Position numbers and translations under genes: made by a program. From positions 78,370,001 to 78,434,000 of the forward strand of contig OZ076409.1 of assembly GCA_964187785.1 (NCBI GenBank): a stretch of 64,000 nucleotides of DNA, read 5' to 3'. Below the pieces are notes generated by a model. That model saw nothing but the letters and a program-made list of their open reading frames with translations, ran no database searches and was not told the origin of the DNA. Origin of the DNA: Amphiscolops sp. MND2022 (taxonomy: Eukaryota). Below are positions 28,601 through 44,139 of the stretch, in pieces. Each line of letters opens with the position of its first letter. Positions within the stretch are counted from its first letter, which is position 1.

Positions 28601-31600
28601 ATCTTTACACCAAATCACGATTTTGGTACGCGCGGTCCTTTCATTATTAAAAAAGAAGCGGAGGTTTGAAAATTTTGTGCTAAATCTGAACTACTTTGTA
28701 ATATCCCGAGTAAATTAAATTGCGTTTTACTAAGGAGGAGGCCAATGTTCGAAAAAAGCTTCCACGTGGCCCAGCATACTATATCCGAACTGAAGCCTTT
28801 TCCGAGCACAGAAGGCACCCCTTCGGTGTTAAAATGGATGTTTAAAAATCTCAAAGGATCCTCTTCCACATTTTTCGGCACTATGAGACTGTAGAAAATT
28901 CTCATTTTTCGTCCGATATTGGATTTTCTCAATACATATTCAATAATTTTCTTCATACTATCTGAACTTATTCAAGACCGGCGTTTTTTCGGTACCATGC
29001 GACTTTCTAATTTGTTTTTATCGAAGCCGTATTGGATTTTCTCAATACATATCCAATAATTTTCTTCAATACTATCTGAACTTATTCAAGACCGGCGTTT
29101 TTTCAGTGGGCACCGACTTGGGCCGTTCCGGGCTAAATTCTAAAACCTCTCACAGAAAAGCGAAGTTGCATGCAACGTAAAATTGATAGGAATTGATGTC
29201 TACGCTTCACACCATTCCCACAGCACATTATCAATCCATTGAAACCATTCCACAAGAAATTCACCTTATGAGCGGAAAAACGGCAGACGGGTACATTTGA
29301 TCAATGATCTGATTGACTGTGTAAAATGAAGAACCAAACCTGTATTCTGGTTATGACATCATTCGGATTGACAATCTGGGGTATAAAACACTCCAATCGC
29401 TTCCATTTGGAGAGTTCTTCCCTGCTCTGATTCCACTTTTCCTCCATTGGCGTCAACTCTTCCAAACGTGCCTAAATGAACTAGGCAAAAATAATTAGAC
29501 AATTATCCAATGTCAATTATTTTTCAAAGTCATAAAATTGCATTGCAATCATATAGAAAAGAAATAATCACTCGGAAAAGTAGTATACGAATTCCCGATT
29601 CGGACCAGTCAAATATATATATTTTTAAAATGTTAATTATTATTTTTTTAAAAAAAAATCAACGTTTTTTTCACAACTAACTGTTAAAAAATAACCAAGG
29701 CAAACCATCTAAAAATTAGTTATTTTTCACAACTGAAAAATTAACAAAATAAAAATCAATGAACAAATTTTTCCAGTGGAAAACTTTGTCATGAAGCAAA
29801 AATTCACTAACCTCCATTATGGTAATAGAGAAAATTTGTGTAGCAAAAATTTTTTGGAATGAATTACAGCAACGCTGGCTTAAAAGTGTAACATGTGCAA
29901 TTCAATTCATTTTTGCAGTGAAGTGTGCAATGCAGACAAATTGACATTTCACACTCGAGAAACATGAAAGAAACATCAAAGCAAATTTGCCAGAATTCGT
30001 GCCAGCCTGGCAAAAATTTTGGCAAAAATATTTTTGCTGGCAAAAATTTTGGCAAAAAATTTTCTCAGTGACAAACTTTTTGGCAAAAACTTTTATCGCT
30101 GACAATTTTTTAGCTCCTTTTTGCAACCATGAAGTTGTTCTAGTTCTTGTGAATTATACCTAATCTTAATACATGGGAAAAGATAGTTTGCCTAATATCT
30201 CAACGGGAAATAGTTTTAGACAAAATTCACAGAAATAAAAGTTGAAGATAATTAAAAGTTACAAATTTTGTTACTGGACGTTTTCTCTAAAATCAACCCA
30301 CTAATTACCACCTATCAAAACAGGTGTAAAAAATTGGTTTTTCTCATTTTTCTCAAAAGTGGTTGGAGTAAGACTAGTAACACTTGTAAATTAGGTCCAC
30401 TTCCATATACGATCTTTCTGATGGTATACTCAGCTCGTATGTGACCCGAACAGGTGTTGAGATCAGGGTTGACCTTGAAACTTGCAAGATCAAAGGAACT
30501 GACTCAACCGTTAGTTTTAGCATAATGACTCATAGGAACAAAAATGTAGGGCGTCAGAAAACAAGTCTCCCCACCAAATTTCAGCTCGTTACTGAAAACC
30601 CACTGATTACCGCCTACCCCAACAGGTGTGAAAATTGTTTTTTTTTCATTTTCATCGAAACTGAGTTATCCTACAATACCGACGCAGGAAATCAAAGTTA
30701 TAGACAATAACAAGACAAACTTTTTTTCTGGAAGAAAGTTTTCTGTATCTTGGACCCACTGATTACCAGGTGAGAAAACAGGTGTGAAAATTGGGTTTTT
30801 CTCATTTTACTCGAGACTGGTTGGTCGTACCGTGAAAAGTCAGTAACTAAAATTGGAGACATCCAAAATATGAACAACTTTTGTTACTAACAAATTTTTT
30901 CATCTTGAACCCACAGGTGAGAAAAATAAAAAAAATTCCATTTTTTTTTAAAAAAGACATATTGAAAAATTTTAATTAAACTATTTTTTCTTTAATAAAT
31001 GGAAATGGAGAATTGTAGTATCTGTAATTCTGAATATAAAAAAGCTTTCAAGTCTGATCATCTGAAATCAGTAAAACATCTTAAAAAATTAGATCAATAT
31101 TATTGTAAAAAATGTAATTTATATATGCCTATCTCAGATAAAATTTCTCATTTAAGTTCAGATGAACATAAAAATAAAACCCAACAACGACGTGTTTGGT
31201 GTGAAGATTGTAGTAAATATATATCTGATACAACAAGACATTTCCAAAGTGAAATTCATTTACAAAACCGTCAACGGGAAAACATGCAAAATTTCGGTAA
31301 TGAAGTAGAAATAATTATGAATGAAAACACATACATTAAACTTAAAATAAATCCAACTAGTAATCTCGAAGATCATATAAATGAATTACTTAGTAAAAAT
31401 TATTTTCCCCGATATAAATATCAATTGAGTTATCTAGCTAAACTTTCAAAAATAGTTAATGGAGAACAAGAAATATTTAAAAGATGGTTAAAATCAGATC
31501 TAACGTATAACAACACACAACAAGATACTCATAACACATTAATGCAGAAATTAGATGATGAACAATTAGAAGGATCAGGTTTTGTGTTTCAAGAAATAGA

Positions 31601-44139: not shown

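What the first reader, a model, noticed from the sequence alone, without database searches (positions are those of the whole stretch)
30996..43616. Poxvirus-late-type TAAATG starts and back-to-back genes suggest a virophage-like, helper-transcribed animal Polinton
Seen: 10 of 12 genes begin exactly at TAAATG (pPolB, major capsid, two-helix protein, integrase, both ATPases, 133-aa ORF, penton, 60-aa ORF, protease). Integrase and ATPase 1 diverge from a 14-bp spacer forming CATTTATT-tctt-AATAAATG (38314-38333). Other spacers are as short as 3-9 bp, no introns are apparent, and a perfect hairpin directly follows the 133-aa gene (41521-41539). Known: TAAATG is the poxvirus late initiator, where the mRNA starts in the AAA and gains a slippage poly(A) leader. 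Virophages mimic their giant-virus host's late promoter and hairpin terminators. Inference: this element is transcribed by the RNA polymerase of a co-infecting large cytoplasmic DNA virus rather than host Pol II, so it may be an endogenous hyperparasite and possibly an antiviral defence.
Basis: partly seen in the sequence, partly recalled or inferred. Interest (0 to 1): 0.85.

Follow-up and report, generated by a model that had tools for sequence, protein, structure and literature searches.

The report
Worm Polintons carry poxvirus-style late promoters
An acoel worm's genome holds hundreds of copies of an integrated virus whose genes nearly all start at a poxvirus-style late-promoter sequence missing from the host genes sampled, so it is likely switched on by the RNA polymerase of a still-unknown large virus, which would make it a parasite of that virus stored in an animal genome.

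Summary
Observation confirmed and extended. The window holds a decayed 14.2-kb Polinton (29579-43803). 10 of 12 genes start at TAAATG (background 17 of 482 ATGs), and all 12 have TAAAT at or just before the ATG. The motif persists in 20 sister copies, a rearranged subfamily and a family with only 44% capsid identity, other genes and, in some copies, another polymerase type. It is absent from 13 host starts, from 29 starts of a second Polinton family in the same genome, and rare in other Polinton-like contigs (13 of 308). New here: a T peak exactly ten bases upstream of TAAAT (41 of 51 starts against 24 of 78 internal sites), the published vaccinia late-promoter geometry. Splice-acceptor, stop-start, TATA and poly(A)-signal readings fit poorly. 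Best reading: a helper-transcribed, virophage-like Polinton clade in an acoel. Not shown: any transcript, any helper (no viral RNA polymerase in the assembly), any antiviral effect. The hairpin is not a general terminator, and TAAATG also occurs in a metagenomic giant-virus bin, so the helper need not be a poxvirus.

The parts
29579..43803 (.). Polinton/Maverick element, 14,225 bp, 27.6% GC, termini AGTAGT...ACTACT, flanked by direct repeat TCGGAA(A)
   Evidence: 6-bp target duplications in sister copies
29579..29750 (+). left terminal inverted repeat (~170 bp)
   Evidence: (I2, I3)
43634..43803 (-). right terminal inverted repeat
   Evidence: (I2, I3)
29751..30995 (.). left non-coding region, shared in part by sister copies, with ~156-bp repeats carrying CAGGTG (6 in 29579-30998)
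   Evidence: (D17)
30999..34757 (+). protein-primed DNA polymerase B with endonuclease-VII-like insert; starts AATAAATG; broken by an in-frame stop at 32847-32849
   Evidence: PF02945 E 6.6e-4, below cut-off; 33-36% to other pPolBs; 52%-identical relative hits PF03175
34899..36127 (-). double jelly-roll major capsid protein; starts TTTAAATG; frameshifted near 35933
   Evidence: (PF21738)
36189..36710 (-). 173-aa ORF with a hydrophobic stretch; starts ATTAAATG
36742..37446 (-). 234-aa ORF; TAAATA-ATG here, TAAATG in subfamily B
37465..38316 (-). retroviral-type (rve) integrase; starts AATAAATG
   Evidence: PF00665 E 6e-13
38314..38333 (.). back-to-back start region; each gene's TAAAT supplies, on the other strand, part of the T tract of its partner
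   Evidence: direct reading of the sequence
38331..39335 (+). A32-like ATPase 1; starts AATAAATG
   Evidence: PF04665 E 1.7e-6
39530..40534 (+). ATPase 2 (A32-like, Zn-finger N-terminus); starts AATAAATG; in-frame stop(s) in this copy
   Evidence: (7 of 8 aligned homologues hit PF04665; the acoel member itself did not)
40509..41490 (-). ~325-aa conserved ORF; TAAATT-ATG here, TAAATG in subfamily B; frameshifted in this copy
41521..41539 (-). hairpin after the 133-aa gene; stem kept, loop varies (CTT/CGA) among copies; same type as the mobile GC mini-hairpins
41540..41941 (-). 133-aa ORF of unknown function; starts TATAAATG
   Evidence: no informative atlas hit
41951..43009 (-). penton (minor capsid protein); starts AATAAATG
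   Evidence: best fold match mavirus penton, E 3e-9
43013..43195 (-). 60-aa ORF conserved in subfamily B and weakly in family C; starts AATAAATG
43203..43613 (-). adenain/S273R-type cysteine protease; starts ATTAAATG
   Evidence: profile hits ASFV S273R E 5e-8, adenovirus protease E 2e-6
33174..33201 (+). 21-nt in-frame GC-rich double mini-hairpin insertion in pPolB, absent from some copies; similar 18-nt ones near 41041 and 42364

Best explanation
This is an endogenous Polinton of an acoel worm whose genes each carry a bipartite T-tract + TAAAT(G) start signal with vaccinia-late geometry, and it is likely transcribed by the RNA polymerase of a co-infecting nucleocytoplasmic large DNA virus, as virophages are. 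Shown: the signal, its geometry, its conservation over three families, its absence from the sampled host genes and from a second Polinton family, and purifying selection on the capsid. Inferred mechanism: in a cell infected by the helper, the helper's late-stage polymerase and factors would recognise the T tract ten bases upstream and initiate in the AAA of TAAAT. Slippage would add a 5' poly(A) leader, which replaces the host-atypical T at -3 with A. All genes would then be expressed together from individual promoters lying inside the neighbouring gene. pPolB would replicate the linear genome, MCP, penton, ATPase and protease would make virions, and the integrase would insert new copies into heritable cells. 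Integrated copies then decay, as this one has. The helper's identity is open (poxvirus-like is the best match; other NCLDVs are possible), and a defence role is untested.
For: Motif far above chance. Conserved TAAAT in 200 of 211 starts mapped in 20 subfamily-A copies, TAAATG in 148 of 211. In 13 of 20 copies pPolB keeps TAAAT but loses the G and starts 6 nt later, so TAAAT is kept independently of the codon. Subfamily B (capsid 85%, new gene order): 86 of 93 starts of 11 genes and 9 of 9 integrase starts listed, including both genes that are exceptions in A. Family C (capsid 44%, integrase 36-43%, penton ~35%, other genes, two pPolB types): 25 of 36 ORFs of at least 75 aa in two copies start TAAATG, 31 of 36 have TAAAT near. 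Controls: host starts 0 of 13, with purine at -3 in 13 of 13; second in-host Polinton family 0 of 29; 26 IMG/VR pPolB contigs 13 of 308 ORFs. A prediction from the literature was met. Vaccinia late promoters have a conserved T at the 10th nucleotide upstream of TAAAT (PMC11980589, passages; 5-7 bp spacer in PMC5294985, passages). Here T peaks at exactly that position in 96 non-redundant starts (79%), and in 41 of 51 starts against 24 of 78 internal TAAATG of the same four elements (P 3e-8; TTT 28 of 51 against 7 of 78). Coding GC is 28-33% against 47% for host genes and 42% for family 2. Capsid pN/pS is 0.05 for shared and 0.26 for private variants in 19 copies. Precedent: poxvirus-associated PLVs near the mavpol2 capsid clade (PMC11296320, abstract, passages and part 2 of 8).
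Against: No helper trace in the assembly. RPB2- and RPB1-type searches found only three exon-split loci each, although the RPB2 search rang at E 1e-135 and 5e-122 in two giant-virus bins. VLTF3 and NCLDV-capsid searches were blank, without a working control. First-look candidate counts of 2,295-2,924 capsid matches (not copy numbers) are easier to reach for a helper-independent element. No hairpin rule: 1 of 8 folded spacer strands is significant. A cluster of CAGGTG (E-box-like; label recalled) sites upstream of pPolB hints at nuclear host regulation. AATAAA is not depleted in A/B coding DNA, unlike family 2 (6 against 12.6), but it is not depleted in the six control Polintons either, so it does not discriminate. 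27 of 51 starts read AATAAATG, overlapping a poly(A) signal. TAAATG is not pox-specific: 11 of 24 ORFs in a motif-selected giant-virus stretch, T at -13 in 15 of 24 such starts (not different from the Polinton, P 0.15) though TTT in only 1 of 24. The host start sample is small (13), and the capsid selection estimate is biased low because copies were chosen by protein similarity.
Confidence: 0.6

Rival explanations
1. Host Pol II transcribes the element from a clade-specific compact promoter (T tract + TAAAT as initiator, perhaps read by an element-encoded activator), giving nearly leaderless mRNAs; the likeness to poxvirus promoters is convergence or common ancestry.
For: Very high copy number; no helper genes in the assembly; CAGGTG cluster at the left end; several ORFs of unknown function could be activators.
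Against: Host and family-2 starts follow a purine -3 rule and never use TAA. Pol II mRNAs starting 2-3 nt before AUG are atypical (general knowledge). A TATA reading would put the start downstream of the ATG. The exact 10-nt T position has no known Pol II meaning (inference). GC content departs from the host.
Confidence: 0.22
2. The motif is a relic of a virophage-like ancestor, and the element now multiplies without a helper.
For: No helper trace; the copies are decaying.
Against: TAAATG is kept or re-made in front of new N-termini, rearranged genes and non-homologous spacers in young subfamilies, and capsids were under purifying selection during the expansion, so the motif was under selection until recently.
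Confidence: 0.08
3. TAAATG is a by-product of gene packing: overlapping poly(A) signals (AATAAA), stop-start translational coupling on polycistronic RNA, or trans-splice acceptors.
For: 27 of 51 starts read AATAAATG; gaps of 3-9 bp.
Against: All 4 window genes with no same-strand upstream neighbour (pPolB, integrase, ATPase1, protease) have it. The TAA is the upstream stop in only 2 of 41 cases. 24 of 51 starts lack AATAAA, and AG occurs within 15 nt in only 8 of 51. Equally compact, AT-rich Polintons use AAA-ATG.
Confidence: 0.06
4. The helper is not a virus but a cytoplasmic linear plasmid-like element encoding a pox-like RNA polymerase, as pGKL2 serves pGKL1 in yeast.
For: Yeast virus-like elements use a TAAAN initiator with slippage poly(A) (PMC6211774, passages).
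Against: No such polymerase in the assembly (a highly reduced polymerase could be missed). No such element is known to me in animals (recalled).
Confidence: 0.04

Closest known systems
Animal Polintons/Mavericks (adintoviruses with divergent 'Beta' PolB; mavpol capsids)
   Same: TIRs, 6-bp target duplication, pPolB, rve integrase, DJR capsid, penton, A32 ATPase, adenain protease (PMC8502044 passages).
   Different: Other Polintons tested, including a second family in this host, start at purine-rich AAA-ATG-type contexts, not T tract + TAAATG. This clade has two ATPases and a long-branched capsid.
Mavirus and EMALEs of Cafeteria (endogenous virophages)
   Same: Integrated, rve + pPolB, promoter motif at gene starts read as matching a giant virus, families differing in GC (PMC8547959 passages). 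The penton fold is closest to mavirus penton.
   Different: Protist host, virophage-type capsid, CroV TCTA promoter, and shown reactivation and protection. Here: animal host, Polinton capsid, TAAAT promoter, nothing shown experimentally.
Entomopoxvirus-associated PLVs (Barth et al. 2024, PMC11296320)
   Same: Animal-cell elements, two of them next to the mavpol2 capsid clade, proposed as poxvirus hyperparasites.
   Different: Found in occlusion bodies. AHEV_PLV1 and Ca_PLV1 lack a detectable integrase. The main text has no promoter analysis (0 hits for promoter, motif, transcription, TAAAT; supplements not seen).
Vaccinia late promoter; yeast pGKL initiator
   Same: TAAAT(G/A) over the start codon, T ten bases upstream, ~6-nt spacer; TAAAN slippage initiator.
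   Different: Here it precedes every gene, replication genes included, in an element that encodes no recognisable RNA polymerase. The 5' poly(A) is not shown.

Membership tests
Polinton/Maverick (Polintoviricetes) | terminal inverted repeats and short target-site duplication | tested here: met
   TIRs; AGTAGT termini, 6-bp TSD in sister copies, 7-nt direct repeat in the window
Polinton/Maverick (Polintoviricetes) | [quoted passage not shown] | tested here: met
   The window pieces miss PF03175, but they are 33-36% identical to Polinton pPolBs and a 52%-identical in-host relative hits PF03175 at 4e-14
Polinton/Maverick (Polintoviricetes) | retroviral-type integrase | tested here: met
   PF00665 E 6e-13
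Polinton/Maverick (Polintoviricetes) | DJR major capsid, penton, A32 ATPase, adenain protease | tested here: met
Beta adintovirus / mavpol2 | divergent PolB with N-terminal OTU domain; capsid in the named clade | tested here: inconclusive
   PolB is divergent from PF03175. OTU was not tested and no named reference capsids were in the tree, so the subgroup label rests on recall and on PMC8502044 passages
Virophage (Lavidaviridae/Virophaviricetes) | virophage-type major capsid protein | tested here: not met
   The capsid groups with Polinton DJR proteins (PF21738). Not filed as a virophage; the claim is only that it works like one
Virophage (Lavidaviridae/Virophaviricetes) | dependence on a giant virus for expression and replication | not testable with these tools
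   needs infection and transcript data
Virophage (Lavidaviridae/Virophaviricetes) | promoter shared with a known helper | tested here: inconclusive
   matches vaccinia late geometry but no helper of this host is known or found
Virophage (Lavidaviridae/Virophaviricetes) | hairpin 3'-end signals at most genes (Sputnik/mimivirus type; recalled) | tested here: not met
   1 of 8 folded spacer strands significant
Poxvirus late promoter | TAAAT(G/A) overlapping or just before the start codon | tested here: met
   12 of 12 window genes; 200 of 211 in copies
Poxvirus late promoter | conserved T ten bases upstream of TAAAT within a T-rich tract | tested here: met
   41 of 51 against 24 of 78, P 3e-8; profile peak at that position
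Poxvirus late promoter | initiation in AAA with non-templated 5' poly(A); activity lost when TAAAT is mutated | not testable with these tools
   needs 5' end data and a reporter assay

The most novel reading that the evidence does not exclude
An acoel worm carries a multi-family clade of endogenous virophage-like Polintons, possibly thousands of copies, tuned to the late transcription machinery of an undiscovered poxvirus-like virus. This would be an animal counterpart of the mavirus/CroV provirophage system, heritable and possibly protective, and a sequence rule for telling helper-dependent from autonomous animal Polintons.
Probability: 0.4. Interest if true: 0.9.

Novelty: new variant of a known kind. 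Interest (0 to 1): 0.76.

Why it matters
How animal Polintons are expressed and whether they need a helper is open. This genome holds two kinds side by side: one with host-like starts and GC, the other with a vaccinia-type late promoter before every gene. That gives a simple, scannable signature for helper-dependent Polintons across animal genomes. It predicts an unknown large DNA virus of acoels, and it makes the question testable by 5'-end sequencing or a promoter-reporter assay. If right, the endogenous-virophage system known from protists extends to a bilaterian animal, at high copy number.

Tried and rejected
RNA: no RNA holder was listed for the element, so no reads were laid; this is no evidence either way. 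Relatives in public contigs: the search for related loci was blank for pPolB, capsid alignment A2, P0003, P0014 and P0032, and the phage collection was blank. So it is unknown whether the outside members of the capsid clade (P0003, P0012, P0014, P0032) use TAAATG. The entomopoxvirus-associated PLV genome was not held, and PMC3196450 was not held. They found no convincing helper either; the giant-virus bin G002 could not be named. The single-sequence penton fold was useless (pLDDT 35); the alignment-based one worked. The penton profile found nothing in PDB by sequence. The integrase tree did not finish, and the capsid tree is the quick version without bootstrap. Rejected: TTTTTNT depletion (8 sense against 58 antisense) is explained by codon use (11 against 14.0 expected). 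Also rejected: hairpin terminator rule, splice acceptor and stop-start coupling, and TATA box (it would start transcription past the ATG). One search's regular expressions mis-picked integrase starts and some ATPase2 starts, so subfamily-A counts are taken and B integrase. In one search, 4 of 17 rows were dropped before counting host starts (2 not true starts, 1 duplicate, 1 doubtful; none had TAA). ARAGORN at relaxed score gave noise, and Rfam was blank for three subfamily-B loci. The search of earlier findings returned nothing. Not found in print: paper searches showed no report of TAAATG promoters in Polintons. Only listings were seen (40 of 379, where 'taaatg' occurred in 1 of the 40, not read), subscription journals are missing, and no supplements were read. 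PMC11161782 gave no passages for my terms. Also seen: passages of PMC11788076, PMC10328495, 10.1101/2025.10.09.676808 and 10.64898/2026.10.13.758929, and the abstract of 10.1101/2024.03.23.586382.

Full report
What is there. The window carries a complete-length Polinton at 29579-43803, with 27.6% GC, ~170-bp terminal inverted repeats starting AGTAGT and a TCGGAA(A) direct repeat on both flanks. Its twelve genes are pPolB, DJR major capsid, rve integrase, two A32-like ATPases, penton, adenain-type protease and five smaller ORFs. This copy is decayed: pPolB and ATPase2 have in-frame stops, and the capsid and the 41490 ORF are frameshifted. The host genome is 1.07 Gb. Its EF1-alpha is closest, among full-length named hits, to the acoel Convolutriloba macropyga at 89%, so the host is very probably an acoel. 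Capsid searches scored 137, 101 and 99 matches out of 2,667, 2,924 and 2,295 first-look candidates over 13 large contigs (overlapping, not copy numbers). Sister copies have their own 6-bp target duplications.

The observation. Ten of twelve genes start at TAAATG, and the other two have TAAAT three bases earlier. Only 17 of 482 other ATGs in the element follow TAA, and 8 of 148 in AT-matched context (P about 1e-11). The divergent 14-bp spacer, the 3-9-bp gaps and the hairpin are as described.

Conservation. In 20 copies about 94% alike (capsid genes), TAAAT lies at 200 of 211 mapped starts and TAAATG at 148 of 211 (29 of 240 gene-copy pairs were missing or unmapped). In 13 of 20 copies pPolB reads TAAATAGAA-ATG: TAAAT is kept while the codon moves. 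Non-homologous spacers in front of the capsid and the 133-aa gene all end in a T tract plus TAAATG. Subfamily B (capsid 85% identical, two genes relocated, new N-termini) has TAAATG at 86 of 93 starts of eleven genes and 9 of 9 listed integrase starts, including the two genes that are exceptions in the window. Family C (capsid 44%, integrase 36-43%, 15-21 kb, mostly one strand, extra genes, and either a PF03175-type or an endonuclease-VII-type polymerase) starts 25 of 36 ORFs at TAAATG and 31 of 36 near TAAAT in two copies. In a quick capsid tree A, B and C fall in one long-branched clade with four outside proteins (SH-aLRT 100, no bootstrap, no named references).

Controls. Thirteen host starts (EF1-alpha, histones, tubulins) have no TAA and all have a purine at -3. 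A second Polinton family in the same genome, with 42% coding GC, has 0 of 29. Twenty-six IMG/VR contigs with this polymerase motif have 13 of 308, and their animal-type members use AAA-ATG. So the motif is neither a host habit nor a general Polinton or AT-richness effect.

A second promoter element. A review states that vaccinia late promoters have TAAAT(G) over the start codon and a conserved T at the 10th nucleotide upstream, among further Ts (PMC11980589, passages). Another gives a 5-7-bp spacer (PMC5294985, passages). The Polinton starts peak in T at exactly that position: 79% of 96 non-redundant starts (run before I read the passage). In one copy each of A and B and two of C, 41 of 51 starts against 24 of 78 internal TAAATG have that T (P 3e-8), and 28 of 51 against 7 of 78 have TTT there. 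The signal holds in each of the four elements separately (9 of 10, 9 of 12, 13 of 15, 10 of 14).

Mechanism. The fit to a two-part late promoter, the host-atypical T at -3, the promoters buried in neighbouring genes, the virus-like GC content (28-33% against 47%) and the purifying selection on capsid among copies (pN/pS 0.05 shared, 0.26 private, biased by how copies were chosen) together suggest a specific life cycle. This clade would spread as virions and use the late transcription machinery of a large cytoplasmic DNA virus. Slippage at TAAAT, which gives 5' poly(A) leaders in vaccinia and in yeast linear elements (PMC6211774, passages), would make the short leader translatable. These steps are inferred. 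I put helper-polymerase transcription at 0.6, a host Pol II convergence at 0.22, relic at 0.08, packing by-product at 0.06 and a plasmid-like helper at 0.04.

What speaks against it or limits it. The assembly has only the three host polymerase loci, where the same search finds viral polymerases in giant-virus bins. A helper need not integrate, but none is in hand. High copy number and a CAGGTG cluster at the left end fit a host-driven life. It is one of a family of GC mini-hairpins (98 found against 10.6 expected in A copies, 155 against 9.1 in B) that come and go as 15-21-nt, mostly in-frame insertions. AATAAA avoidance does not discriminate. A giant-virus bin from a metagenome also starts 11 of 24 genes at TAAATG in a motif-selected stretch (7 of 13 beyond the part first seen), though without the sharp TTT (1 of 24 pooled starts). 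So the helper may be a non-pox NCLDV. Antiviral benefit was not testable.

Relation to what is known. It is a member of the Polintons by every feature tested, and not a virophage by capsid. It would work like mavirus/EMALEs, whose promoters match their giant virus (PMC8547959, passages). Poxvirus-associated PLVs near the mavpol2 clade are described, without promoter analysis in the main text (PMC11296320). My searches (listings only) found no report of pox-type late promoters in integrated animal Polintons or of Polintons studied in acoels. Verdict: a real, strong and apparently undescribed signal; a new variant of a known kind; interest 0.76.

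Noticed in passing
window 33174-33201, 41041, 42364; many places in subfamily A and B copies: Mobile GC-rich single or double mini-hairpins (GCGAAGC/GCAAAGC cores, often followed by CCTTCGG) inserted as 15-21-nt, mostly in-frame units. 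They are polymorphic among copies. The double form was absent from family 2, host loci and 26 viral contigs. Reminiscent of fungal mitochondrial double-hairpin elements (recalled; search listing only).
   Followed up: partly
L118-L127, L158-L177 (G000): A second Polinton family in the same genome, ~40% GC, host-like starts, unrelated capsid: the natural control and probably an autonomous, Pol II-transcribed type.
   Followed up: partly
L359-L370 (G000): Family C Polintons swap polymerase type (PF03175-type or endonuclease-VII-type) while keeping capsid module and promoters; they carry U-box ORFs, and many starts have an extra ATTTCAA/TTGAA about 20-25 nt upstream.
   Followed up: partly
L200 and other subfamily-B copies, inside the long terminal repeats: A conserved ~300-nt GC-richer structured region (long stems, tRNA-box-like words) present at both ends in at least two copies; no Rfam match.
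   Followed up: partly
window 30321-30914: Six CAGGTG sites, all on one strand, in ~156-bp repeats upstream of pPolB (0.21 expected); number varies among copies.
   Followed up: partly
G002:C1:1-20000 (L330), L254, L241, L285: Uncultured giant-virus contigs with frequent AATAAATG gene starts; lineage not identified.
   Followed up: partly
window 60854-64000: 809-nt inverted repeats (99%) enclosing a 346-aa ORF with a TRAF/MATH domain; possibly a gene-carrying DNA transposon.
   Followed up: no
window 4000-8200: Tandem array of ~185-bp units in alternating dimers.
   Followed up: no
G000, many contigs (e.g. C67, C33, C4): Very large arrays of a 3.63-kb histone repeat (6,411 first-look candidates).
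   Followed up: no
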